From NCBI GenBank assembly GCA_964433785.1, contig CAYSTL010000002.1:2193-66192 (forward strand): a DNA stretch of 64,000 bases, in the 5' to 3' direction. Position numbers and translations under genes: made by a program. This document shows, one piece after another, positions 6,975 through 44,902 of this stretch. This DNA is from an uncultured Thermoplasmata archaeon (GTDB taxonomy: Archaea; Thermoplasmatota; Thermoplasmata; Halarchaeoplasmatales; Halarchaeoplasmataceae). How positions within the stretch are numbered: the stretch's first letter is position 1; every line of letters starts with the position of its first letter. A model generated the notes under the pieces. The model searched no databases and was not told the origin of the DNA. It saw nothing but the letters and a program-made list of their open reading frames with translations.

Positions 6975-9890
<2,916 letters not shown>

Positions 9891-21463: not shown

Positions 21464-22039
21464 ATGAAACTGACCGAGAAAGAAATAAAAAATATAAAAG
21501 ATATGCATGAAGAAGGGTTTTCACTCAATGAGATAGCTGAAGAATTGGAAAAAGACAAGGACGATTTTAAAAATCATATCATAAATGAAAAACTCCTCAG
21601 CGAGGAACTCAATGATTTATCTCTACAATCAAAAGCGTTCAAAATGTTCGACGAGGGAAAGGACGGAGTCGACCTCGTTAAAGAAGGTTACTGTACAGCA
21701 GCTGAAGCCGGAGTATTGATGGAGAAATATTCCGATCTATCAGAGGCGGAAGATGAATCGGAAAAGATAAAAGATATGCACAGGAAGATCTCCACCCAAG
21801 TGGGACTTTTGGGCAGCAGAGTAGCTAGATTGGAAGTCAAAATTATGAACGCTTTGCTACTGCCAAAAACATTCGAATGTCCATCCTGCGGTAATAAAGG
21901 AAAATATGAGGTCGGTGTTGTCTGTGATTCCTGCGGGAAAGTCACAACCTACATACCTGATGAGATCAAGGATAGTCTATCTGGAAAAATAGTAGATACT
22001 TCAGTATATGTTGGAAATTCCGATGAAGAAGAGGATTAA
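21464..22039 (+). CDS. Hypothetical protein with an N-terminal HTH-like segment, a coiled-coil middle and a C-terminal zinc ribbon
   Basis: 'KDMHEEGFSLNEIAEEL' resembles a sigma-region-4/transposase-type HTH. The C-terminus has 'CPSCG...CDSCG'. 191 aa, acidic. It converges on the DnaA-like gene with a 4-nt overlap. Confidence 0.45.
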   Translation: MKLTEKEIKNIKDMHEEGFSLNEIAEELEKDKDDFKNHIINEKLLSEELNDLSLQSKAFKMFDEGKDGVDLVKEGYCTAAEAGVLMEKYSDLSEAEDESEKIKDMHRKISTQVGLLGSRVARLEVKIMNALLLPKTFECPSCGNKGKYEVGVVCDSCGKVTTYIPDEIKDSLSGKIVDTSVYVGNSDEEED

Positions 22040-23682
22040 GAAACATAAGATATAGTATCCATCTCTCTTTCTAAAATACTTATTTCCTTATCTTCTAAAG
22101 CGTTCGGATTCACTATCACTAAAAATATACTCTTTGTTTCTGATACTATATCCACCATGTGTCGTATAAATTTTAAAGAAGCCTCAAAATTTACATTACT
22201 TATCAGATATTCAAGACCATCCAATAATATCACTGAATCCTCTTTACTCTTCTTCTCTAAAAGCCAACTCAATCTCTCAAGATTGGGTGAGATCGTTTCG
22301 AATTTCTCACTTTCTTTATCTGTCAACCATTTTACTTCTGATTCTTTCAATTCAAACTCATCTTTAATCCTTCCAGGATTCAATCTTGATATCACTAAGC
22401 GCTCATTATCATTATCAATTTTATTTAACAATTCAAACACGTTTTCAACGCTTTCACCCTTGATCAGATAACTTCGTCCTTCGAGAACATCTAACTTCAA
22501 TTCTTCGTGCTCAATCTCCTTATCGATATACTGTTCCAATGTCTTCTTAACATTGTTTAGGGTAACTTCTTCATCGAGTAGATCTGAATAAGCAGACACT
22601 CTTGTTAAAGCTCCTTCTATGAAGTTCACATTTTTTTTGATATTTTCGGCTATAAAATCTAATACTTCTGGAGATGTTTCGAAATCAAATTGTTCGGATT
22701 TCTCTTTGATTATCTGTCTCCTAGTCTCATATGTAGGGGGTAAAATATCGACCACCAATCCTGATTTAAATCTAGAAGCCAATCTCTCCTCTATCTCGGT
22801 TATATTTTCAGGAGGTCGATCACTGGAGATTACTATCTGTCCATTTTTGCTTTGGATCTCATTAAATATATGAAATAATGAATGTTGAACATCTAATCTC
22901 TCAGCGATATATTGTATATCATCCAACAGTAAAGTATCACATCCGATATACTTCTCCTCAAATTTCTTTGAGTCATCGCCTTCTAAGTATTTATCAAAAT
23001 TAGAGATCAACTTGGAAGTCTCTACGTACTTAATTTTTCTACTTTGGAACTGTTTTGATAATGCCCTGCCGATAGCCTTCATAAGATGAGTCTTTCCCAA
23101 ACCTGATTCCGCTTTAATCAATAAAGGATTATAACTTTTTTCAGGATTTTTTGAAACCGCTAGAGCTGCAGCGTAAGCAAATCTATTGTTTGGCCCAACT
23201 ACGAATTTGTCAAAACTGTATCTACTCGGAAATTTATCCTCGATTTTTTCTGATATCTTAGAAGATCTACGAGGACTTATCTCCCCATCCATGATCTTTA
23301 TAGCGATATCTACTTGCTTATCTTGTCCAATTTTATACTCGCTGGTCTCTTCTTCTCCAGCTATCTTCCCATCCATTTCTGAAATAATTTTATCTATATC
23401 CACTTTAGTGTATACCTGTATCTTCAATCCGGCTTTATGTTCCAAGCTTTGAATTCTTTGTAATGACTCTAAACCTCTTAATCTCTCCGAAGGTGTTTCA
23501 AGCTGGGAAACAATAGGTATTCCTTTTTTAATTACAATAAGGCCTTTGTACTGATCAGATATTTCAATTCTTACATATCCAGTAAAAGAGTGATTCTTCA
23601 ATTTAGTCAATAAAGACTGGAGTTTCCCAGTTCCTTCGATCTCCTGTATTTTAAATCCTTTAGATATATTATTCAACGACAA
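22036..23682 (-). CDS. DnaA-like AAA+ ATPase fused to a C-terminal DUF835-like domain and an unknown N-terminal domain; not a canonical replication initiator
   Basis: Residues ~150-390 contain 'YSFDKFVVGPNNRFAYAAALAVSKNPEKSYNPLLIKAESGLGKTHLMKAIG' (DnaA box: FDNFVxGxxNxxAxAAAxxVAExPGxAYNPLFIYGGVGLGKTHL). They also contain 'LLLDDIQYIAER' and 'SSDRPPENITEIEERLASRFKSGLVVDILPP' (DnaA sensor/box VII region: SDRPP...RLxSRFxxGLxxDIxPP). The DnaA domain IV DNA-binding HTH is absent. The C-terminus 'GRSYLIKGE...LVISRLNPGRIKDE...VKWLT...ISPNLERLS...SVILLDGLEYLI...NFEASLKFIRHMVDIV...IFLVIVNPNALEDKE' matches what I recall of archaeal DUF835. Confidence 0.7.
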   Translation of the reverse strand: MSLNNISKGFKIQEIEGTGKLQSLLTKLKNHSFTGYVRIEISDQYKGLIVIKKGIPIVSQLETPSERLRGLESLQRIQSLEHKAGLKIQVYTKVDIDKIISEMDGKIAGEEETSEYKIGQDKQVDIAIKIMDGEISPRRSSKISEKIEDKFPSRYSFDKFVVGPNNRFAYAAALAVSKNPEKSYNPLLIKAESGLGKTHLMKAIGRALSKQFQSRKIKYVETSKLISNFDKYLEGDDSKKFEEKYIGCDTLLLDDIQYIAERLDVQHSLFHIFNEIQSKNGQIVISSDRPPENITEIEERLASRFKSGLVVDILPPTYETRRQIIKEKSEQFDFETSPEVLDFIAENIKKNVNFIEGALTRVSAYSDLLDEEVTLNNVKKTLEQYIDKEIEHEELKLDVLEGRSYLIKGESVENVFELLNKIDNDNERLVISRLNPGRIKDEFELKESEVKWLTDKESEKFETISPNLERLSWLLEKKSKEDSVILLDGLEYLISNVNFEASLKFIRHMVDIVSETKSIFLVIVNPNALEDKEISILEREMDTISYVS

Positions 23683-31741: not shown

Positions 31742-33034
31742 TTAGTATTTATCCAGGAACGAGAATCTCTCGTGAGCTGGCATGCCTTCGTCAAAACAGT
31801 AGTGTATTTCGTTGAAGTCTTTTCTGAATGCCGTCACATCTTGTTTGACCGATTCTGGATCCTCTTTGTCCATGACGATCCTCTTGATGAATTCAGCGAC
31901 TTCATCCATCTCATTCTCTTTCATTCCCAATCTTGTCAGTTCCTGAGCACCTAATCTAATACCGCTTGGTTCCTGAGCACTGTCAACGTCATCCCATGGT
32001 AGCAGGTTCTTATTAGCGATCATGTTGGCTTCTTCCATAGCTTCGACCAACGTTTCACCGCCGCCTTCATCCAAGACATCCACTGCTATAGTATGTGATG
32101 CTGTGAATCCTTTATGCTCACAAAGTACATCAAATCCTCTTTCGTGGAGTGCCTGTCCAAGTGCCTGTGCATTACTGATTATCTGATCGGCATAATCTTT
32201 ACCGAATTTCATGTGTTCAGCCAATGATACTCCCAACGCGGCCATCGTGTGAAGATGATGGTTTGAAAGAACTCCTGGGAATACACCATATTTTAGTTTT
32301 TCCTGTGTCTCTTCATCCCTAGGATTTGCTAGAAGGATACCTCTTTGAGGACCTGGGAGTGTTTTATGTGTGCTACCGGTCATTATCTCTGCACCTTCCT
32401 CCAAAGGCTGTTGGAACCTTCCAGCACCGATCAGACCTAGGACATGAGCTCCGTCATACCAAACGTGACATCCGACCTCATCAAACGTATCTTTCAATTC
32501 TTCAAGTGGTGGAGGGAATAAAAATACAGATTGTCCAAATAAAGCGATATCAGGCTCCTCTTCTAACAACAGTTCTTTTGTACCTTCAAGATCGATATTC
32601 ATCTCATCTACATTGAAAGGATAGGTCTTCGGTTCCATCCCTCTGAATCCGACTGAACCAAAAACAGCACTACTTATGTGTGCACCATCTGAAACATCTA
32701 CAGATGTTATCGATTTATCTGGTCCGCCTAAAGCCATTAGGACCGCTTGATTAGCGTTTGTACCAGAAATAGGTCTGACATCAGCGTAATCTGCACCAAA
32801 TAATTCTCTTGCTAGCTCCTGTACCTTCAATTCGATCTTATCAACATAAATATTTCCTTGATAATATCTGTTACCAGGTGTACCCTCGGCATATCTATCC
32901 TGTAAATCCGACAGCAACAGTTCCCTGGCCATTGGACTGATGATATTTTCCGATGCGATCATCGGTAGTGAATTCGAGAACCATTCATGGTGTTTCTTCA
33001 CCTGTTCATATATATATTCTGCGTCTTTCTTCAT
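31742..33034 (-). CDS. glyA: Serine hydroxymethyltransferase
   Basis: 430 aa. 'MIASENIISP...RYYxG', the PLP-lysine region 'TGSTHKTLPGPQRG' and overall collinearity with SHMT. Confidence 0.9.
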   Translation of the reverse strand: MKKDAEYIYEQVKKHHEWFSNSLPMIASENIISPMARELLLSDLQDRYAEGTPGNRYYQGNIYVDKIELKVQELARELFGADYADVRPISGTNANQAVLMALGGPDKSITSVDVSDGAHISSAVFGSVGFRGMEPKTYPFNVDEMNIDLEGTKELLLEEEPDIALFGQSVFLFPPPLEELKDTFDEVGCHVWYDGAHVLGLIGAGRFQQPLEEGAEIMTGSTHKTLPGPQRGILLANPRDEETQEKLKYGVFPGVLSNHHLHTMAALGVSLAEHMKFGKDYADQIISNAQALGQALHERGFDVLCEHKGFTASHTIAVDVLDEGGGETLVEAMEEANMIANKNLLPWDDVDSAQEPSGIRLGAQELTRLGMKENEMDEVAEFIKRIVMDKEDPESVKQDVTAFRKDFNEIHYCFDEGMPAHERFSFLDKY

Positions 33035-38617: not shown

Positions 38618-39676
38618 TTATTCTAGAGGTAACTCTTTCATACCTTCTCTGATCAGATTGATAAGGTTCCTGACATCGTCCCAATCAGCCACCTCAACGG
38701 TTGAATGAGAGTATCTAACTGGTACTCCGATAGAAATAGTTGGGCAACCTGATTCCTGAAGAGCCATACCATCAGTAGTTCCTCCAGTTACTCCGTACTG
38801 GTATGGTATATCCTTCTCTTCAGCTACTTTTTTGAAGTGCTTTACCATCTTAGGAGTTGAGATAGCTCTCGTGTCTACCATCCTTAGAACCGGTCCTTCC
38901 CCGAACTTTATCGGCTTATAGAACTGTTCTGCACCTGGCATATCGGAAGTAGTGTAAGTGTCTAGTGCGATAACATAGTCTGGTTTGATAGTGTTGGCAA
39001 CTACTTTTGCACCTCTCAATCCTATCTCTTCCTGTACACTCCAGATGTAAGAAGGCGAAATGTCCAATTCTTCATCTTTTAGATTTTTAAGAGTTTCTAA
39101 AAGTGTGTAGGAACCTATCCTATTATCCATTCCTCTTCCTGATATCTTGTTTCCTGCAAGTCTTAGTAATTTTTTATCGAATGTAATAGGATCTGGAACG
39201 TCTATTCCGAGTTCTTTGACCTCTTCTGCTGAAGAGGCACCAACATCGACTCTTATCTTTGTCCAAGGAGTTATCTCTTCTTCCTTATCCTTATCAGTGG
39301 TGAGATGAGGTGGTTTATGACCGATCACTCCATTTATCGGTCCTTTTTCTGTATGTATGGTAACGTTCCTTCCTGGTAGTAACGCATCCATGATCCCACC
39401 GATCTTCTTTATCCTGAGGAATCCATCATCTTCTATATTGGATACTACCATTCCGATCTCGTCCATGTGAGCTACTAAGCCAACTGAAGGTCCGTCGTTT
39501 TCCTGCTCATATATCAGGTTCCCGATATTATCTTCTCTTATTTTTTCAGATTGTTCTACCTCTGCATAGTCTAAGATCAGTCCTTTCAACTTTTCTCTTA
39601 TCGGTCCTTCGTACCCAGATACTCCTGGTTCCATCAAAATTTCCTTAAATATATCTAATCCTTCTAGTTTCTTCAT
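38618..39676 (-). CDS. M42-family (TET/FrvX-like) aminopeptidase
   Basis: 352 aa. 'VSGYEGPIRE...VGLVAHMDEIGMVV' and the dimetal-ligand pattern of M42 peptidases. Confidence 0.75.
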   Translation of the reverse strand: MKKLEGLDIFKEILMEPGVSGYEGPIREKLKGLILDYAEVEQSEKIREDNIGNLIYEQENDGPSVGLVAHMDEIGMVVSNIEDDGFLRIKKIGGIMDALLPGRNVTIHTEKGPINGVIGHKPPHLTTDKDKEEEITPWTKIRVDVGASSAEEVKELGIDVPDPITFDKKLLRLAGNKISGRGMDNRIGSYTLLETLKNLKDEELDISPSYIWSVQEEIGLRGAKVVANTIKPDYVIALDTYTTSDMPGAEQFYKPIKFGEGPVLRMVDTRAISTPKMVKHFKKVAEEKDIPYQYGVTGGTTDGMALQESGCPTISIGVPVRYSHSTVEVADWDDVRNLINLIREGMKELPLE

Positions 39677-39694
39677 ATCATATCACCTAAAGTT

Positions 39695-39725
39695 AAGAGG
39701 GGGACCCCTATGTTTCAAGTGGAAA
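39695..39725 (-). promoter_or_regulatory. Conserved 31-nt element, copy 1 (read on the minus strand). It sits between the gcvT stop and the M42 peptidase start, inside a larger nested hairpin (39697-39743).
   Basis: Minus-strand sequence TTTCCACTTGAAACATAGGGGTCCCCCTCTT is 28/31 identical to plus-strand 42789-42819. GGGGTCCCC occurs only at these two places in the 64 kb outside the rRNA. Confidence 0.55.
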
Positions 39726-39752
39726 CAGTAGTCCCCCGAGGGTTTGTAAATA

Positions 39753-40856
39753 TTATTCAGTAAAAGGAGGATTCTTGACCTTTGCCTCTTTCTTCTCTCC
39801 TCTTATCTCTATCTGTACTTTGGTACCTTCTTCATGATAACCAGGATCAAGATATCCCATCGCGATTCCTTTTTCTAAAATAGGTGAATTATTACCGCTA
39901 GTCACAACACCTATCTTTTCATCTCCATCATAGATATCATATCCATGCCTTGGGATGCCTTTTTCCATCATGACCATACCTTTGAGCATCTGATGGTCTG
40001 ATTCCTTTAACTCTTTTTGTTTCTCTTTACCTATGAAATCATTATCCCAATCTATAGTCTGTTCTTCCCATCCTGTCTCTATCGTAGTCCTGTTTTCATC
40101 GAAATCCTGTCCGGACAGTAGGAATCCAAATTCTAATCTTAAAGTGTCTCTAGAACCCAAACCACATCTTGTTGGTGGATTCTCAAGATCCATAAACTGT
40201 TCCCAGAGTACTTTTCCTGCTTCATTAGGAAGTGCTATCTCGAAGCCGTCTTCCCCGGTATAACCGCTTCTTTGTACTACTGGTTTATCGGACATGGACC
40301 ATCCTTCATCGAAAGCGTCCATAACTTCGTCATTTATCCTCATCTTCTTCCCTCTAAAGAAGCCTATATCGGATACGTCTTCCTCGCATACTTCTGATAA
40401 TATCTCCTCTGCATCAGGACCTTGAAGTGCGAACATAGCTGTTTCATCTGTTATGTCCTCGATGTATTCTTCTCCTCCTCTTTTTGCTAAAAAGTCATAG
40501 ACTTCCTCGTTATTACCAGCGTTAGGTACTATGTAACATGAATCTTCTGATAATCTATTAACGAGCGTATCATCGATTATTCCTCCATCCTCATTGAGTA
40601 TATGTGCATACTTGATCTGTCCTATTTCAGATTCTGTAATATCTTGGGTACAGTGATTACTCATGAACTCTAATGCTCCATCTCCTTCTAACAGAATCTC
40701 TCCCATATGAGATACATCAAAAATACCAGCTTCTTCTCTTACTGCCATATGCTCTTTTATGATTCCTTCGAACTTTAAAGGCATCTCATAACCGCCAAAA
40801 TCTGTCATCTTTGCTCCTGCTTCTACATGATTCGAGTGAAGGGCTGTTTCTTTCAT
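39753..40856 (-). CDS. gcvT: Glycine cleavage system T protein (aminomethyltransferase)
   Basis: 367 aa. 'HVEAGAKMTDFGGYEMPLKFEGIIKEHMAVREEAGIFDVSHMGE' is the canonical GcvT N-terminus. Confidence 0.9.
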   Translation of the reverse strand: MKETALHSNHVEAGAKMTDFGGYEMPLKFEGIIKEHMAVREEAGIFDVSHMGEILLEGDGALEFMSNHCTQDITESEIGQIKYAHILNEDGGIIDDTLVNRLSEDSCYIVPNAGNNEEVYDFLAKRGGEEYIEDITDETAMFALQGPDAEEILSEVCEEDVSDIGFFRGKKMRINDEVMDAFDEGWSMSDKPVVQRSGYTGEDGFEIALPNEAGKVLWEQFMDLENPPTRCGLGSRDTLRLEFGFLLSGQDFDENRTTIETGWEEQTIDWDNDFIGKEKQKELKESDHQMLKGMVMMEKGIPRHGYDIYDGDEKIGVVTSGNNSPILEKGIAMGYLDPGYHEEGTKVQIEIRGEKKEAKVKNPPFTE

Positions 40857-40955
40857 ATTTCCGGTATATTTTAGTGGTTTAAAGTTTTTATCTTTTAAAG
40901 ATAGATTGTAGGTAAGGTTTATTACGTTAGTTCTTATTTCTAAAGAAGGGATAAT

Positions 40956-42341
40956 ATGAAGGAATATGATCTGATATCGATAGGAACTGGGTCAGGCATG
41001 AGTATCGTAACTCAAGTTCTAAATGATGATCCAAGTAAAGATATCGCTGTTATAGAGAATGAGGCTCCTGGTGGTATATGTTTAACTAGAGGATGTATAC
41101 CCTCAAAGATGTTGCTGTATCCTGCAGAGGTTGTCAATCATATCAAGGATTCGAGTAAATTTGGTATAAACGTAGATATCAAGGATATAGATTTTGAACA
41201 GATAATGGAAAGGATGAGAGATCATGTTATCCCTCAGAGTAACCAGATAGGTAATAATCTTAAACGTAGTGATGATCTAGATTTTTATCAGGATGATGCT
41301 GAATTCATAGATGATTATACTATAAAAGTAGGAAATGATAAGATAAAAGGAGATAAGATCATATTGGGTACTGGTTCACGTGATTTCATACCTCCGATAG
41401 AAAATGTAGATAACGTTGATTACTTAACAAGCAAGACATTCCTGGATATGAAAGAATTACCTGAAAGCATGATGATCGTGGGAGGAGGTTACATAGCAGC
41501 AGAATATGGTTATTTCCTTTCTATGATGGGATCAGATGTAACGATAGTGGGGAGAAATCCGCAGTTCATACCTTCAGAGGAAAAAGAGGTCTCTGATCTA
41601 GCTAAGGAAAAACTGTCTGAATATATGGATATAAAAACTGGTTATGAAGTAAAAAAGGTCGATGAAAGATCGGATAAGAAACTAACTTATGCAGAAAATA
41701 AAGAAGGAGATAAAATAAAGGAAAAATCGGATGAATTGTTGATAGCAGCTGGAAGAAGATCTAACTCAGACATTTTAAGACCAGAAAAGTCAGGGATAGA
41801 AACTACAAAAGGGGGTTGGATAAAGGTTGATGATTATCTAGAAACTTCAAAAGACAATATATGGGCCCTTGGGGATGCTACTGGAAAACATATGTTCAAA
41901 CATGTAGCTAACTATGAAGCTGAATTAGTATATTATAATGGATTCACCGATATGAGAAGGAAGGTTGATTACCATGCTGTTCCTCATGCTGTATTTACAC
42001 ACCCTGAGATAGCATCTGTAGGTATGAAAGAAGAAGAAGCAAGAGAAGATCATGATATATTGATAGGTTACTATGGTTATGAAAACACTGCAAAAGGATC
42101 TGCTATGGAACTAGAGGACTATTTCGTAAAAGTTATAGTAGAACAGGAGAGCTATAAGATCCTAGGTGCTCATATAATCGGTCCACAAGCATCAGTACTC
42201 ATACAGGAGATAATAAATCTGATGTATACAGATGATAAAAGTGCGATACCGATCTTTAGAGGTATGCATATCCATCCATCCTTGAGCGAAGTTGTAGATA
42301 GAGCTTTTTCTAATCTACATTCCCATGAACACAATCATTGA
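40956..42341 (+). CDS. lpdA: Dihydrolipoyl dehydrogenase (glycine cleavage L protein) / pyridine nucleotide-disulfide oxidoreductase
   Basis: 461 aa. Redox-active disulfide 'GGICLTRGCIPSK', FAD and NAD Rossmann motifs, and C-terminal dimerisation 'HIHPSLSEVV'. Adjacent to gcvT. A related flavoprotein disulfide reductase cannot be fully excluded. Confidence 0.65.
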   Translation: MKEYDLISIGTGSGMSIVTQVLNDDPSKDIAVIENEAPGGICLTRGCIPSKMLLYPAEVVNHIKDSSKFGINVDIKDIDFEQIMERMRDHVIPQSNQIGNNLKRSDDLDFYQDDAEFIDDYTIKVGNDKIKGDKIILGTGSRDFIPPIENVDNVDYLTSKTFLDMKELPESMMIVGGGYIAAEYGYFLSMMGSDVTIVGRNPQFIPSEEKEVSDLAKEKLSEYMDIKTGYEVKKVDERSDKKLTYAENKEGDKIKEKSDELLIAAGRRSNSDILRPEKSGIETTKGGWIKVDDYLETSKDNIWALGDATGKHMFKHVANYEAELVYYNGFTDMRRKVDYHAVPHAVFTHPEIASVGMKEEEAREDHDILIGYYGYENTAKGSAMELEDYFVKVIVEQESYKILGAHIIGPQASVLIQEIINLMYTDDKSAIPIFRGMHIHPSLSEVVDRAFSNLHSHEHNH

Positions 42342-42396
42342 AATATTCTATTTACTAAGAAAAAATTTAAGTAAAGTACATCGGTTCAAAGAAACT

Positions 42397-42780
42397 ATGA
42401 GTCTAAAAAGAAAGTATAAAAAGCATCAATTTGTTATCTCACCGATCTTACTGGCGATAAGTGTTATAGGTTTAGTGATAGGTCTATTCGGTACAGTTTT
42501 AAGTGGTAGTGCTCCTGGATTTCTCAGTGAAATAGAAAACACCCTAGGGAATTGGTCTTATTGGATACTCTTGGCTGGTGGTCTTTTTACGATCATATTT
42601 GCTTATGTGATAATAGATCTTTACAGAACATTGAATGAATTTAATGAGTTGTTCAAAACTAACAGCAAGAGTAAGTTCATCAAAAATATAGCTAGGATAG
42701 AAACCCTTGCGTTGAAGTTGGGTCCTAGCTATGAAGATAAAGTTATAGAGAAAGAAGAAGATTATAACATAGACCGGTAG
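42397..42780 (+). CDS. Small membrane protein, hypothetical (2 TM)
   Basis: ATG at 42397 avoids overlap with lpdA. The ORF-track start is 42325. The 31-nt conserved element lies immediately after its stop. Confidence 0.4.
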   Translation: MSLKRKYKKHQFVISPILLAISVIGLVIGLFGTVLSGSAPGFLSEIENTLGNWSYWILLAGGLFTIIFAYVIIDLYRTLNEFNELFKTNSKSKFIKNIARIETLALKLGPSYEDKVIEKEEDYNIDR

Positions 42781-42788
42781 TTGGTCGG

Positions 42789-42819
42789 TTTCCACTTGAA
42801 ATCAAGGGGTCCCCCTCTT
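42789..42819 (+). promoter_or_regulatory. Conserved 31-nt element, copy 2. It lies 8 nt after the stop of 42397..42780 and 11 nt before tRNA-Gly.
   Basis: TTTCCACTTGAAATCAAGGGGTCCCCCTCTT; see copy 1. It contains a small GTTTC-N6-GAAAT hairpin followed by a GGGGTCCCCC tract and a T-rich tail. Confidence 0.55.
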
Positions 42820-42830
42820 TGTTATGTAGA

Positions 42831-42904
42831 GCGACTGTGGTCTAGACTGGTTAAGACTCAAGCTTCCCAAGCTTGCTTCCCGGGTTCAAATCCCGGCAGT
42901 CGCA
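42831..42904 (+). tRNA. tRNA-Gly (anticodon CCC); no encoded CCA
   Basis: Manual fold: 7-bp acceptor stem GCGACTG/CAGTCGC, D-arm GTCT-AGACTGGTTA-AGAC, anticodon stem CAAGC/GCTTG with loop TTCCCAA, T-arm CCGGG-TTCAAAT-CCCGG, discriminator A. 74 nt. Confidence 0.8.
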
Positions 42905-42907
42905 TTA

Positions 42908-44902
42908 TTATTCTAATAATCTTTTAGCTTCTTCAAAATCAGGGTCGATATCTAGTGACTCTTCTATAGATTCCTGCCAGTTATCTTCACCCTTTCTTTT
43001 CAGCACTATCCCTTTATAATACCAGGTTATCGGATTGTTTCTATCTATATCCAATGACTTCTCAAGATTTTCTAAGGCTTCTTCGAGCTTATCCTCCTCT
43101 AACAGACAGAAACTGTAATTGTTTAAATAAACTGGAGTCTCACCATAATTATCTATAGCCCTTTTGAAAGCATTGAGAGCATCTTCAAATCGGTCCATAT
43201 TGTACAATATACATCCTAGGTTATTGAAATAGATAGGATTCTTTATATCAGTAACCTTTTCTAGAAGCTCGATACTCTCTTCATAATTGTTGTTTATAAA
43301 ATGTAAAATACTGAATAGATTATACAGACGGTTTTTATCAGTGATAGCTAGATCACTTTCAATATCCTCAACAGAACTATTTTTTTTAATCAAACATCTG
43401 AATCTCTCTTCTAACACATCTTCTAGTCCCTCATAATTTTCGATCAAATCTTCGAATATATCTATAGCACTATCTAGATCACCCAATTTTTTTAGTGAGA
43501 TCCCTTTCTTTTCTTTTATAGATATGTTACTCACCTTTCCGTTCAATTCGTTGAGAATATTTTTTGAATCTACAAGATCTCCGTTTTGATAATCTACTTC
43601 TTCTAGATTTAAAGATGAGATCGGCTCTTCCCTGTTCTTATCAAAAATATCTTTTGCCTTATCTAGGTTTCCTTCCTCGAAAAATATACATCCCGTTAGT
43701 TCGTTATCTTCATTAACATATTTAATCGCTTCTTTATTTTCGTCCAATCTCCATAGTACTTCTGAAAGTCGTTTTCGTTTTATAGGGTCAAAATGCTCGG
43801 ATAACTTAACATTCTCCCTGATCATCTCATCAGTTTTCTCTATCTTTATCTGCTGTTCTAAAATGTTTTTTAGCCTTTCAGCTTCCTTATGATCTGGATC
43901 GAATTCTAGAACTTTGTTGATTCTTTCCAAGGATCGTTTATAATCGTCCTTTTTGTATAGATATGCAGCGTGTATGTACTGGTATTCAGGGTTGTCTGGT
44001 TCGATTTCTGTAAGTTTTTTAGATACCTCTGTTGTTTTCTTTATCTTACCCTGTTTTTCAAAGATAAGCGCTTTATTCATCAAGGCCTGCACAAATCTAT
44101 CGTCTATCGATAATGCATTGTTTATCGAATTTAGGGCTTCATCTAGCTCTCCCTTTTTCATGTAACACAGCCCGATGTTATTCCACGTTTCAGGTGATTC
44201 AGGTTCTATCTCTAAGAGCCTTTCAAAACAACTGATAGCTTCGTCATAATCTGAGTTCCTGTAGTGGGCATCTCCTTTAGCTTTCCACGCTTCTACATAT
44301 CCGTCATCTATATTCAGTGCTTGTTCTAATGCATCTATTTCGTTCTTGTAGGAATCTATTTCTTTATAGGCCTTCGACAATAGTAACCAACTTTGCTTGA
44401 AATTCTCGTCTTTTTTTATTATTTCTATTATCTTGTCTATCGCTTTCTTGGGTTCTTCTTCGTTCAGTGTTTTCCTTGCTTCATCCATCATGTTACTGAT
44501 TTCGTCCCTCTGGATACTTTCTTCCCTCAGATCTAAATCGTTCAGCAGATGAAATTTATCTAATAATTTATAGAAATTTTCTACACCAGCAACTTCCACA
44601 TTCGAATCTATTCTCTCATTTACTCTCTGGTGTGTGATTATAAAACCTTGGATATTCTCATCTACCATCTCTTCAAGCTTTCTGACTTCCCTCTCGATGT
44701 TCGTTGCTCTTGAGCAGTTGACGACATAGTCTTTCTTTTCATCATCTCTTTCGATTGAAGCTTCTACTTGTATGTCTCCACCGATGGATTTCACAGTAGA
44801 TATCTGAAATCCCATCCTCTCGAGTAGATCTATGCAGAGTCTTTCGAACTTTTCTCTGCTCATCGATTGAATTCTTTTCGAGAGTCGATCTTCTATCTTC
44901 AA
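42908..44902 (-). CDS. Fusion protein: N-terminal Mrr-like restriction-endonuclease-type domain, long acidic coiled-coil/TPR repeat array
   Basis: 664 aa. The N-terminal ~110 aa, 'FERLCIDLLERMGFQISTVKSIGGDIQVEAS...YVVNCSR', resemble the Mrr_cat/restriction endonuclease fold. The rest has many TPR-like 34-aa repeats ('AWKAKGDAHYRNSDYDEAISCFERLLEIEP', 'TWNNIGLCYMKKGELDEALNSINNALSID', ...). The stop is 4 nt from the tRNA-Gly 3' end. Confidence 0.55.
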   Translation of the reverse strand: MKIEDRLSKRIQSMSREKFERLCIDLLERMGFQISTVKSIGGDIQVEASIERDDEKKDYVVNCSRATNIEREVRKLEEMVDENIQGFIITHQRVNERIDSNVEVAGVENFYKLLDKFHLLNDLDLREESIQRDEISNMMDEARKTLNEEEPKKAIDKIIEIIKKDENFKQSWLLLSKAYKEIDSYKNEIDALEQALNIDDGYVEAWKAKGDAHYRNSDYDEAISCFERLLEIEPESPETWNNIGLCYMKKGELDEALNSINNALSIDDRFVQALMNKALIFEKQGKIKKTTEVSKKLTEIEPDNPEYQYIHAAYLYKKDDYKRSLERINKVLEFDPDHKEAERLKNILEQQIKIEKTDEMIRENVKLSEHFDPIKRKRLSEVLWRLDENKEAIKYVNEDNELTGCIFFEEGNLDKAKDIFDKNREEPISSLNLEEVDYQNGDLVDSKNILNELNGKVSNISIKEKKGISLKKLGDLDSAIDIFEDLIENYEGLEDVLEERFRCLIKKNSSVEDIESDLAITDKNRLYNLFSILHFINNNYEESIELLEKVTDIKNPIYFNNLGCILYNMDRFEDALNAFKRAIDNYGETPVYLNNYSFCLLEEDKLEEALENLEKSLDIDRNNPITWYYKGIVLKRKGEDNWQESIEESLDIDPDFEEAKRLLE

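What the first reader, a model, noticed from the sequence alone, without database searches (positions are those of the whole stretch)
39695..39750. GC-rich 31-nt conserved element embedded in a nested hairpin between gcvT and the M42 peptidase gene
On the minus (transcribed) strand the region reads CCCTCGGGGGAC-TACTGTTTCCACTTGAAACATAG-GGGTCCCCCTCTT. There is an outer GGGGGAC/GTCCCCC stem and an inner GTTTC/GAAAC hairpin, followed by a T-rich tail. In a ~33% GC genome a GGGGTCCCCC tract is conspicuous, and GGGGTCCCC occurs only here and at 42806-42814. The element starts about 25 nt after the gcvT stop and ends 19 nt before the peptidase ATG. It could therefore be an intrinsic-terminator-like 3' structure, a promoter-proximal factor-binding site for the downstream gene, or both. 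A second, 28/31-identical copy in the same orientation relative to transcription sits between a membrane-protein gene and tRNA-Gly.
Basis: seen in the sequence. Interest (0 to 1): 0.55.

Follow-up and report, generated by a model that had tools for sequence, protein, structure and literature searches.

The report
Orphan pair of replication-origin recognition boxes
The two GC-rich repeats are not an RNA hairpin but archaeal origin recognition boxes, the DNA sites bound by the replication initiator Orc1/Cdc6; they mark an old chromosomal origin region that in this lineage no longer has the initiator gene beside it.

Summary
A 32-nt element occurs at 39695-39726 (-) and 42788-42819 (+), 29/32 identical, with none expected by chance.

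The hairpin reading fails. The outer GGGGGAC/GTCCCCC stem exists only in this genome, folding energies are no better than shuffles, and Rfam has no match.

The conserved core TTCCACTTGAAA-NNN-AGGGGT is an archaeal origin recognition box (ORB): a dyad plus a G-string. It matches published Methanomassiliicoccales ORBs at 20-21 of 22 bases. The same 21-mer occurs in 101 metagenome loci, usually as short-range ORB(-)/ORB(+) pairs, and 39 of those have an Orc1/Cdc6 gene within 1.5 kb.

Both window copies sit at the same two positions in every relative where both positions are on the DNA held (12, M42 62-91% identical; Halarchaeoplasmatales-like), while the flanks have diverged. The orientation is the canonical (-)/(+), but the copies are 3.1-3.8 kb apart, bracket gcvT, lpd and DUF3198, and have no orc1/cdc6 nearby.

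In three outgroup Thermoplasmatota, orc1/cdc6 lies exactly where tRNA-Gly lies here (Cdc6-ORB-DUF3198-gcvT-ORB-M42). So this is the ancestral cdc6-linked origin region with its ORBs retained.

Orc1 binding and origin firing are inferred, not shown. Strand-composition tests were inconclusive.

The parts
39695..39726 (-). Copy 1 of the 32-nt conserved element (ORB(-)), between the gcvT stop and the M42 peptidase Shine-Dalgarno sequence.
   Evidence: Conserved at the orthologous position in 12 related genomes.
39713..39724 (-). ORB dyad TTCCACTTGAAA. This is the predicted contact of the Orc1/Cdc6 winged-helix domain.
   Evidence: Matches the published ORB dyads TTCCAGTGGAAA and TTCCACTGGAAA. Invariant in alignments A1 and A2.
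39704..39709 (-). G-string AGGGGT, 3 nt after the dyad. This is the predicted contact of the AAA+ initiator-specific motif.
   Evidence: Same spacing as the Methanomassiliicoccales ORBs. Invariant in A1 and A2.
39696..39703 (-). Lineage-specific C-tract extension, CCCCCTCT.
   Evidence: A C5-7 run follows AGGGGT after 0 or 2 bases in nearly all clade copies, once after 4; two copies have an interrupted run and one only four C. It is also present in the cdc6-adjacent ORBs of outgroup L122.
39731..39737 (-). It is specific to this genome and is not part of the conserved element.
42788..42819 (+). Copy 2 of the 32-nt element (ORB(+)), between the DUF3198 stop and tRNA-Gly(CCC).
   Evidence: Conserved in the relatives. 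Positionally orthologous to the ORB just upstream of orc1/cdc6 in L120, L121 and L122.
42790..42801 (+). ORB dyad TTCCACTTGAAA.
42805..42810 (+). G-string AGGGGT.
42811..42818 (+). C-tract extension, CCCCCTCT.
39753..40856 (-). gcvT (aminomethyltransferase), inside the ORB pair and transcribed toward ORB(-).
   Evidence: Pfam GCV_T and GCV_T_C.
40857..40955 (.). Divergent gcvT|lpd intergenic region, 75% AT. It holds TTTAAA-type promoter boxes and is the only candidate unwinding region between the ORBs. That role is an inference.
   Evidence: AT content is no higher than in ordinary intergenic DNA of the window.
40956..42341 (+). Dihydrolipoamide-dehydrogenase-like flavoprotein (lpd), inside the pair. 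It is absent from the outgroup arrangement.
   Evidence: Pfam Pyr_redox_2 and Pyr_redox_dim. Outgroup gene orders.
42325..42780 (+). DUF3198 protein gene. It is next to this ORB in every genome examined.
   Evidence: in L121 a gene of the same size and position without a Pfam hit on record.
38618..39676 (-). M42 aminopeptidase gene downstream of ORB(-). An AGGTGA Shine-Dalgarno sequence lies at 39683-39688.
42831..42904 (+). tRNA-Gly(CCC) downstream of ORB(+). It occupies the position that orc1/cdc6 holds in the outgroups.

Best explanation
Each element is an origin recognition box (ORB), the double-stranded DNA site recognised by the archaeal replication initiator Orc1/Cdc6.

**Predicted binding mode.** By analogy with the solved Orc1-ORB complexes (established knowledge, not tested here), the winged-helix domain would sit on the dyad TTCCACTTGAAA. 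The AAA+ initiator-specific motif would sit on AGGGGT, 3 bp downstream. The following C-run is a lineage-specific second G·C tract in the place where haloarchaeal ORBs carry an extra G-run.

**Arrangement.** The two boxes have the canonical ORB(-)...ORB(+) orientation, dyads inward and G-strings outward. They are the retained ORBs of the ancestral Thermoplasmatota origin region, Cdc6-ORB-DUF3198-gcvT-ORB-M42. In this Halarchaeoplasmatales-like clade three things have changed:
- The initiator gene is no longer adjacent; tRNA-Gly sits in its place.
- lpd has been inserted between the boxes, and in some genomes an HTH gene as well.
- The boxes now lie 3.1-3.8 kb apart.

**Shown here:** ORB identity by sequence; use of the same 21-mer at Cdc6-adjacent origins elsewhere; strict conservation at both positions; positional orthology to cdc6-linked ORBs.

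**Inferred:** that Orc1/Cdc6 binds these sites (about 0.85), and that the locus still fires as a replication origin (about 0.55). The alternative for the second point is that the boxes serve only as initiator-dependent regulatory sites.
For: **1. Sequence identity with known ORBs.** Window copy 1 matches 'Ca. M. alvus' ORB3 (TTTCCACTGGAAACAG-AGGGGT) at 20/22 bases, and the L008 copy matches at 21/22. The dyad-to-G-string spacing is identical (PMC4153887 Table 2). A match with <=3 mismatches is expected 0.01 times in the window.

**2. The same sequence is used at real origins.** The exact 21-mer TTCCACTTGAAANNNAGGGGT, without a following C, occurs in 101 metagenome loci.
- Most of these loci carry two or more ORBs.
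- There are 64 adjacent (-)/(+) pairs. Their median spacing is 213 bp, and 63 of the 64 span 57-735 bp.
- In 39 loci an Orc1/Cdc6 gene lies within 1.5 kb; four were checked with Pfam and all hit Cdc6_C and Cdc6_lid. OapC and PolD-DP1 are also nearby.

**3. Purifying selection.** Both copies are present in all 12 related genomes where both positions lie on the DNA held, and one copy is seen in two more truncated at a locus or contig end. M42 identity to the window is 62-91% and GC is 38-50%. The surrounding intergenic DNA is unalignable.

**4. Concerted variation.** The two copies in one genome share the dyad centre (CACTTG, CACATG or CACACG), often the spacer, and the form of the C-tract. They differ at 2.23 of 22 positions within a genome against 3.11 between genomes (permutation P=0.001).

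**5. Ancestral link to cdc6.** In L120 (the same contig carries a Cdc6 named SG8-5, Ca. Proteinoplasmatales), L121 and L122 the gene order is Cdc6-ORB(-)-DUF3198-gcvT-ORB(+)-M42.
- The ORB(-) lies 35-80 nt upstream of cdc6.
- L122's two ORBs carry the same C-tract.
- L122 also has a 72%-AT stretch and a mini-ORB next to ORB(-).

**6. Orientation.** The (-)/(+) orientation equals the canonical ORB(-)/DUE/ORB(+) pattern (for the pattern; for the empirical counts).
Against: - No orc1/cdc6 homologue lies in the 64-kb window or in the orthologous loci tested by tblastn. None is annotated within the up to 10 kb fetched on each side in six further clade relatives.
- The spacing of 3.09 kb, with three genes between, lies outside the 57-735 bp range of canonical pairs.
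- There is only one ORB per side and no mini-ORB cluster.
- There is no exceptional AT-rich unwinding element. The central 99-bp intergenic region is 75% AT, which is ordinary for intergenic DNA here.
- The strand-composition evidence contradicts itself. A switch near 41 kb is significant for 2-fold sites (P about 0.0007) and for GC3. It is absent or opposite at 4-fold sites, and no consistent sign appears in the relatives.
- Both boxes probably lie inside transcribed DNA. A TATA-like box sits 28-42 nt upstream of the tRNA-side copies. The gcvT stop abuts, or lies within 1-2 nt of, the M42-side copy in L006 and L114-L117. This is unusual for an origin and fits a regulatory role equally well.
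- No binding or replication data exist.
Confidence: 0.8

Rival explanations
1. The boxes are genuine Orc1/Cdc6 sites but no longer serve replication. After the initiator gene moved away they were kept as regulatory sites. Initiator bound just upstream of tRNA-Gly(CCC) and of the M42 peptidase cistron would act as a roadblock or repressor, tying their expression to the initiator's nucleotide state or the cell cycle.
For: - Each box sits immediately upstream of a gene, in the same orientation relative to it.
- A TTTTTAT-like box lies 28-42 nt upstream of the tRNA-side copies. That puts the ORB at about +1 to +35 of the transcript.
- The M42-side copy lies in an intercistronic spacer and is followed by a conserved GAGGTGA Shine-Dalgarno sequence.
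- In the outgroups the orthologous ORB lies just upstream of the cdc6 promoter, an autoregulatory position.
- The spacing between the two boxes varies through gene insertions, so they may act independently.
- Orc1 paralogues that act as transcription regulators are known (Orc1-2 of Sulfolobales, PMC9738581, listed).
Against: - The (-)/(+) pairing around DUF3198-gcvT is older than the loss of cdc6 adjacency. The simplest reading is therefore an unchanged origin function.
- Nothing obvious links tRNA-Gly and an aminopeptidase to initiator control.
- No expression data exist.
Confidence: 0.25
2. The element works as RNA or single-stranded nucleic acid. It would be a terminator-like or processing hairpin at the 3' end of gcvT and DUF3198, or a 5'-leader structure for the downstream genes. 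A variant is a small GGGG-loop-CCCC hairpin.
For: - In the window, copy 1 can form an 8-bp outer stem plus a 6-bp inner stem (-21.1 kcal/mol).
- The G4 and C5 runs stay complementary although 1, 3 or 5 bases separate them in different genomes. A hairpin would tolerate that variation.
- The bacterial-type terminator scan flags 42804-42819.
- The boxes are probably transcribed.
Against: - The outer helix is not conserved: 58.6% of cells pair and there is no pair with a change on both sides.
- Folding energies are indistinguishable from shuffles, with z from -1.9 to +1.0.
- T-tails are absent in many copies.
- One terminator-like site was found against 1.9 expected.
- Rfam has no match.
- The most conserved part is the dyad plus AGGGGT. 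Exactly this sequence is used as double-stranded ORB DNA next to cdc6 in unrelated archaea that lack the C-run.
Confidence: 0.04
3. The two copies are terminal inverted repeats of a mobile or invertible 3.1-kb DNA segment, or attachment sites beside a tRNA gene.
For: - They form a 32-bp inverted repeat bracketing 3.06 kb.
- One copy abuts a tRNA gene, and the region beyond it varies between genomes.
- Several metagenome-assembled contigs end at the tRNA/ORB.
Against: - No transposase, integrase or recombinase lies between or beside the repeats.
- The enclosed genes are housekeeping genes, syntenic across 12 clade relatives and three outgroups.
- There are no target-site duplications.
- The segment is never seen inverted or absent.
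- The repeat sequence is the ORB consensus.
- The viral collection has no match.
Confidence: 0.02
4. The element is a promoter, or the operator of a transcription factor unrelated to Orc1/Cdc6.
For: - The position is promoter-proximal.
- Both the dyad and GGGGTCCCC are partly palindromic, as many operators are.
Against: - The element has no TTTAAA-type TATA box like those in the gcvT|lpd promoter region.
- The stretch that would have to act as a TATA box includes the freely variable spacer, which is GGG in L004.
- The 20-21/22 identity to ORBs, and use of the same 21-mer at Cdc6-adjacent origins, make an unrelated reader unnecessary.
Confidence: 0.06

Closest known systems
ORBs of the orc1/cdc6.1-adjacent origin of Methanomassiliicoccales (Thermoplasmata); Borrel et al. 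2014, PMC4153887, Table 2
   Same: - Same two-part anatomy: a dyad TTCCA(C/G)TGGAAA, 3 variable bases, then AGGGGT.
- 18-21 of 22 bases are identical.
- Copies are inverted.
- ORBs lie on both sides of a gene, about 1.8 kb apart in 'Ca. M. alvus'.
   Different: - There, two ORBs per side lie 39-47 bp apart and the flanked gene is orc1/cdc6.1.
- Here, one ORB per side flanks gcvT, lpd and DUF3198.
- Here, no initiator gene lies within -39 or +21 kb.
- The dyad has T for G at position 8.
- A C-run follows the G-string.
Haloarchaeal oriC1 ORBs with the extended 'G-string' (Wu et al. 2014; reviewed in PMC4010727)
   Same: - Many carry the identical 21-mer core TTCCACTTGAAACGAAGGGGT.
- A second G·C tract follows directly after GGGGT and is described as essential for autonomous replication.
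- The arrangement is ORB(-)/ORB(+).
   Different: - The second tract is a G-run on the same strand (GGGGTGGGGGG). Here it is a C-run (GGGGTCCCCC).
- The pairs are 57-735 bp apart and next to cdc6.
ORBs away from an initiator gene: isolated ORB3 and ORB4 of 'Ca. M. intestinalis', the ORB inside the DP1 gene of Thermococcales (PMC2643942), and the Hyperthermus butylicus origin without an adjacent initiator gene
   Same: - ORB sequences are found singly, or within or beside ordinary genes.
- An origin need not have a neighbouring initiator gene.
   Different: - Those cases are single-genome observations.
- Here both boxes are fixed at the same two gene junctions across an order-level clade, and they can be traced to a cdc6-linked ancestor.
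Hairpin-plus-U-tract (intrinsic) terminators; archaeal termination relies on oligo-T signals.
   Same: - In this one genome, copy 1 can fold into a GC-rich hairpin after a stop codon.
   Different: - There is no conserved stem, no covariation and no conserved T-tract.
- The conserved part is a protein-binding DNA motif.

Membership tests
Archaeal origin recognition box (ORB) | A dyad-symmetric 12-13-bp element of the TTCCAGTGGAAA type. | tested here: met
   TTCCACTTGAAA in both copies. Best match to a published ORB is 20/22 for copy 1 and 18/22 for copy 2; the L008 copy reaches 21/22.
Archaeal origin recognition box (ORB) | A G-rich 'G-string' (GGGGT) at a fixed short distance 3' of the dyad. 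| tested here: met
   AGGGGT lies 3 nt after the dyad in 25 of the 26 copies examined; the L116 M42-side copy reads AGGGCC. This is the Methanomassiliicoccales spacing.
Archaeal origin recognition box (ORB) | The same sequence is used at initiator-adjacent origins. | tested here: met
   The exact 21-mer occurs in 101 metagenome loci, 39 of them with Orc1/Cdc6 within 1.5 kb. The orthologous ORB lies 35-80 nt upstream of cdc6 in L120, L121 and L122.
Archaeal origin recognition box (ORB) | Bound by Orc1/Cdc6. | not testable with these tools
   Needs a gel-shift, footprint or ChIP experiment. The concerted variation of the two copies fits a single co-evolving reader but does not identify it.
Canonical archaeal oriC (ORB(-)/DUE/ORB(+) next to an initiator gene) | Two or more ORBs in inverted (-)/(+) orientation. 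| tested here: met
   ORB(-) at 39704-39724 and ORB(+) at 42790-42810. The same orientation occurs in 64 adjacent ORB pairs in the metagenome loci, one of which is the L094 ortholog of this pair.
Canonical archaeal oriC (ORB(-)/DUE/ORB(+) next to an initiator gene) | ORBs a few hundred bp apart within one intergenic region. | tested here: not met
   The spacing is 3086 bp with three genes between. Canonical pairs span 57-735 bp. The outgroup pairs span 1.57-1.84 kb.
Canonical archaeal oriC (ORB(-)/DUE/ORB(+) next to an initiator gene) | An AT-rich duplex unwinding element between the ORBs. | tested here: inconclusive
   The only candidate is the 99-bp gcvT|lpd promoter region at 75% AT, which is ordinary for intergenic DNA here. 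L122 does have a 72%-AT stretch of 292 bp beside ORB(-).
Canonical archaeal oriC (ORB(-)/DUE/ORB(+) next to an initiator gene) | An adjacent orc1/cdc6 (or other initiator) gene. | tested here: not met
   tblastn with four Orc1/Cdc6 proteins found nothing in the window or the orthologous loci. No Cdc6 Pfam hit appears in any clade context. The feature is met only in the outgroups.
Canonical archaeal oriC (ORB(-)/DUE/ORB(+) next to an initiator gene) | Replication starts there (copy-number peak, strand-skew switch). | tested here: inconclusive
   The best breakpoint of a 2-fold-site strand statistic is 41,007 (P about 0.0007). The GC3 step has a plateau at 38-46.5 kb. The 4-fold sites show no signal or the opposite one, and the relatives are inconsistent. 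A closed genome or replication profiling is needed.
Structured RNA / intrinsic terminator | A conserved helix supported by compensatory changes, followed by a U-tract. | tested here: not met
   The outer helix pairs in 58.6% of cells, with 0 pairs changed on both sides. Fold z-scores are -1.9 to +1.0. No conserved T-run. No Rfam match.
Insertion sequence / MITE terminal inverted repeats | A transposase or recombinase, target-site duplication, and variable genomic location. | tested here: not met
   Only housekeeping genes lie inside. No duplication at the ends. The location is fixed in all 16 genomes examined. No match in the viral collection.

The most novel reading that the evidence does not exclude
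In this Halarchaeoplasmatales-like clade the ancestral chromosomal origin would have been uncoupled from its initiator gene and stretched into a 'split origin'. Two single ORBs, 3-4 kb apart, would bracket a divergently transcribed pair of housekeeping operons, and each ORB would sit inside a transcription unit. Helicase loaded at the two distant inverted sites would have to slide or be pushed together, as shown in vitro for yeast MCM. Alternatively, outward transcription would open the central region. The lineage-specific G4-N-C5 extension would be part of a changed initiator-DNA interface. A bolder version is that the bacterial DnaA-type AAA+/DUF835 protein, encoded 4-17 kb away in three clade genomes, takes part in initiation at this locus.
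Probability: 0.2. Interest if true: 0.7.

Novelty: new variant of a known kind. Interest (0 to 1): 0.45.

Why it matters
ORBs and cdc6-adjacent origins are textbook archaeal biology, so the motif itself is not new. Three things are new.

- **A likely blind spot in origin prediction.** The Ori-Finder-Arch rules quoted require an adjacent initiator gene, a BLAST hit to a known oriC, or at least 3 ORBs in an intergenic region of 120 bp or more. This locus has one ORB in each of two intergenic spacers (76 bp and 50 bp) and no initiator gene nearby, so as described those rules would likely miss it.
- **An evolutionary path.** The comparison traces the sequence: Cdc6-ORB-DUF3198-gcvT-ORB-M42, then loss of cdc6 adjacency, then gene insertions between the boxes. 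It shows that spacing between ORBs can grow from about 1.6 to 3.8 kb while both boxes stay under strict selection. That bears on how far apart initiator sites can be and still cooperate. In some relatives the box even sits inside the gcvT reading frame.
- **A practical entry point.** It gives a concrete candidate origin and a defined 32-bp probe for a poorly studied halophilic Thermoplasmata order.

Tried and rejected
- **More copies or mini-ORBs in the window.** Searches with up to 3-4 mismatches found none beyond the two.
- **Promoter reading.** The element lacks the TTTAAA boxes seen in the neighbouring divergent promoter region, and its would-be TATA position is variable.
- **Mobile-element reading.** No transposase or recombinase lies inside, the synteny is fixed, and the viral collection has no hit.
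- **orc1/cdc6 gene.** Pfam on 37 window ORFs and tblastn with four Orc1 proteins found none. I could not locate the clade's cdc6.
- **Same-lineage cdc6-adjacent ORB clusters among the 101 metagenome loci.** Only L094, an orthologue of this same locus, belongs to the lineage.
- **Strand-composition tests for an origin.** The results contradict each other and were not used as support.
- **AT-rich unwinding element.** Nothing stands out from ordinary intergenic DNA.
- **Picrophilus ORB paper (PMC3911243).** It is not held in the library.
Full report
**1. The observation**

GGGGTCCCC occurs exactly twice in the window, at 39700-39708 (-) and 42806-42814 (+).

The 32-nt pattern GTTTCCACTTGAAAYMWAGGGGTCCCCCTCTT matches only 39695-39726 (-) and 42788-42819 (+). 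No match occurred in 100 shuffles. The copies are 29/32 identical.

- Copy 1 lies between gcvT (39753-40856, -) and an M42 aminopeptidase gene (38618-39676, -).
- Copy 2 lies between a DUF3198 gene (42325-42780, +) and tRNA-Gly(CCC) (42831-42904, +).

The window is archaeal: it carries an LSU rRNA gene with no adjacent SSU gene. Its GC content is about 39%, not 33%. On the chromosome the two copies form an inverted repeat 3.06 kb apart.

**2. The hairpin is not conserved, but the sequence is**

An exact-pattern scan of one genome per species found the element only in uncultured Thermoplasmata MAGs, at the same two gene junctions.

Alignments of six M42-side and seven tRNA-side copies show an island of invariant columns: TTCCACTTGAAA, 3 variable bases, AGGGGT, then a pyrimidine C-run. 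The flanks on either side are unalignable.

The evidence against an RNA structure is as follows.
- The folding energies of seven copies do not differ from shuffles, with z from -1.9 to +1.0.
- T-tails are not conserved.
- Rfam has no match even at E<=1.

The 'inner hairpin' is simply a DNA dyad.

**3. What it is**

The core has the anatomy of an archaeal origin recognition box (ORB).
- The archaeal consensus is CTTCCAGTGGAAACGAAAGGGGT.
- The consensus for Methanomassiliicoccales, also Thermoplasmata, is GTTCCAGTGGAAATGG-AGGGGT (PMC4153887).

Window copy 1 matches 'Ca. M. alvus' ORB3 at 20/22 bases and the L008 copy matches at 21/22, with identical dyad-to-G-string spacing. Such a match is expected 0.01 times in the window.

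As an independent check I scanned metagenome contigs for TTCCACTTGAAANNNAGGGGT followed by a base other than C, which gave 101 loci.
- Most loci hold two or more ORBs.
- Adjacent pairs are predominantly (-)/(+): 64 such pairs. Their median spacing is 213 bp, and 63 of the 64 span 57-735 bp.
- In 39 loci the largest neighbouring gene family lies within 1.5 kb. Pfam identifies it as Orc1/Cdc6 (Cdc6_C, Cdc6_lid). OapC and the PolD small subunit are also nearby.

Many of those are GC-rich contigs whose ORBs carry the extended GGGGTGGGGGG G-string described for haloarchaea.

**4. Conservation and co-variation**

Context look-ups on M42 homologues extended the set to 12 related genomes that show both copies. 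M42 identity to the window is 62-91% and GC is 38-50%. Some are named Ca. Natronoplasma, order Ca. Halarchaeoplasmatales. Two more loci, L001 and L002, end before the second position.

Each of the 12 has ORB(-) beside tRNA-Gly and ORB(+) between gcvT and M42, 3.1-3.8 kb apart. The larger spacings come from an HTH gene inserted centrally, plus a small membrane-protein gene in L008.

The two copies within a genome share their variants:
- the dyad centre, CACTTG, CACATG or CACACG;
- often the spacer, TAT/TAT in L114 and AAC/AAC in L118;
- the form of the extension, GGGGT-CCCCC or GGGGTCT-CCCCC.

They differ at 2.23 of 22 positions within a genome against 3.11 between genomes (P=0.001). One co-evolving reader would produce this pattern. 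Gene conversion between the copies cannot be excluded.

**5. Link to the initiator gene**

Neither the window nor any clade relative has orc1/cdc6 near the pair.

Three outgroup Thermoplasmatota do. Their M42 proteins are 47-48% identical to the window's. In L120 (the same contig carries a Cdc6 named SG8-5, Ca. Proteinoplasmatales), L121 and L122 the gene order is Cdc6-ORB(-)-DUF3198-gcvT-ORB(+)-M42. The ORB(-) lies 35-80 nt upstream of cdc6, exactly where tRNA-Gly lies in the window's clade.

L122 is the most informative outgroup.
- Its two ORBs carry the same C-tract: AGGGGTCCCCCCC and AGGGGTCTCCCCCTC.
- Beside its ORB(-) lies a 292-bp stretch of 72% AT in a 45% GC contig, with a mini-ORB-like sequence. 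That is a canonical ORB/DUE/ORB unit.
- Its ORB(+) sits inside the gcvT reading frame, in a 24-residue insertion.

In L120 and L121 an ORB-like sequence encodes DSP(N/H)EIVGSV at the same spot in gcvT.

The window's pair is therefore the retained ORB pair of an ancestral cdc6-linked origin region. In the window's clade the initiator gene is no longer adjacent and lpd has been inserted between the boxes.

**6. How it most likely works**

*Shown.* The element is an ORB by sequence, by conservation and by positional orthology to initiator-adjacent ORBs.

*Inferred from established Orc1-ORB structures and biochemistry.*
- An Orc1/Cdc6 monomer binds each box, with the winged helix on the dyad and the AAA+ initiator-specific motif on the G-string.
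- The (-)/(+) orientation places the winged-helix sides inward, as in the ORB(-)/DUE/ORB(+) pattern.

*Inferred with less confidence, about 0.55.* The locus still fires as an origin.

Four points count against that.
- The 3-kb spacing lies outside the canonical range.
- There is only a single box per side.
- No special unwinding element is present.
- Both boxes are probably transcribed.

The strand-composition tests contradict each other and I do not rely on them.
- A step model for GC3 has a plateau at 38-46.5 kb (P<0.0005).
- An amino-acid-independent 2-fold-site statistic has its best breakpoint at 41,007 (P about 0.0007).
- The 4-fold sites show no signal or the opposite one, and the relatives show no consistent sign.

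The main rival, at about 0.25, is that the boxes survive as initiator-dependent roadblocks or operators for tRNA-Gly and the M42 cistron.

**7. The C-tract**

A C5-7 run follows AGGGGT after 0 or 2 bases in nearly all clade copies, once after 4, and in L122. Two copies have an interrupted run and one has only four C. L121 and the haloarchaeal ORBs carry a G-run at that position instead.

A second homopolymeric G·C tract read by DNA shape is the simplest account. A small GGGG/CCCC hairpin in single-stranded DNA or RNA is not excluded. This point remains unexplained.

**8. Comparison with what is known, and novelty**

ORBs, extended G-strings, isolated ORBs and origins without a neighbouring initiator gene have all been described. 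The element is a member of the ORB family.

The locus as a whole fails three defining features of a canonical oriC: short spacing, an adjacent initiator gene and a clear unwinding element. I therefore file it as a new variant: an orphaned, stretched ORB pair fixed across an order-level clade. By the Ori-Finder-Arch selection rules as quoted, that pipeline would likely miss it.

**9. Verdict**

| Item | Result |
|---|---|
| Observation | Confirmed |
| Interest | Moderate (0.45): a known kind of element in an unusual, evolutionarily informative arrangement |

Noticed in passing
window 22036-23682 (-): A 548-aa protein has a bacterial DnaA-type AAA+ domain. The supporting hits are Pfam Bac_DnaA at E=8e-56, TIGR00362 DnaA at 287 bits over residues 96-395, and PDB DnaA 8btg_A at E=4e-57. 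In place of the DnaA-box-binding domain IV it carries a C-terminal DUF835 domain. Homologous Bac_DnaA+DUF835 genes lie 4-6 kb from the M42 gene in relatives L115 (8603-10420) and L117 (16676-18511). Its function is unknown, and any link to the orphan ORB pair is speculation.
   Followed up: partly
L122 9767-9786 (+); L120 9727-9746 (+); L121 9754-9773 (+): In the outgroups the second ORB lies inside the gcvT reading frame. In L122 it sits in a 24-residue in-frame insertion, IGITAPSQTDNRLPQETEGSPPQF. In L120 and L121 an ORB-like sequence encodes DSP(N/H)EIVGSV at the same site. This would be a replication-initiator site embedded in coding DNA.
   Followed up: partly
window 42325-42780 (+); L120 8263-8643; L121 8301-8681; L122 8244-8624: The small DUF3198 gene is the immediate neighbour of ORB(-), and of orc1/cdc6 where that gene is present, in every genome examined. 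This makes it a candidate origin-associated protein.
   Followed up: no
window about 29.7-42.3 kb: Glycine and one-carbon metabolism genes cluster around the ORB pair. They are gcvT (39753-40856), an lpd-like gene (40956-42341), SHMT/glyA (31742-33034), and gcvH at about 31.3-31.7 kb according to the L110 annotation. tRNA-Gly is also adjacent.
   Followed up: no
window 6975-9890 (-): The large-subunit rRNA gene has no adjacent small-subunit rRNA gene. This is the scattered rRNA arrangement typical of Thermoplasmata (PMC4153887).
   Followed up: no
window 1 to about 5150 (-): One open reading frame of at least 1716 codons is open to the left end of the window, so its C-terminal part lies outside. 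It was not characterised.
   Followed up: no
L002 (contig end at the ORB), L115 and L119 (contigs start at tRNA-Gly/ORB); window 42908-44902 (-): Several MAG contigs break at the tRNA-Gly/ORB(-) side, and the genes beyond the tRNA differ between relatives: a TPR/Mrr-type nuclease-domain protein in the window, a TPR protein plus an AF_0692-family gene in L117, and a 920-aa protein plus a peptidase M29 in L118. This suggests a variable or island-prone region that may have separated cdc6 from its ORB.
   Followed up: no
L005 5803-6006 (+); L008 2910-3113 (-): A 67-aa XRE-type HTH regulator gene is inserted between gcvT and lpd in two relatives. In L008 a 128-aa membrane protein gene is inserted as well. 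These insertions widen the ORB spacing to 3.5-3.8 kb.
   Followed up: yes
L116 857-2511 (-): An IS200/IS605-type pair (Y1 transposase plus OrfB/TnpB-like) lies about 4.4 kb outside ORB(-) in one relative.
   Followed up: no
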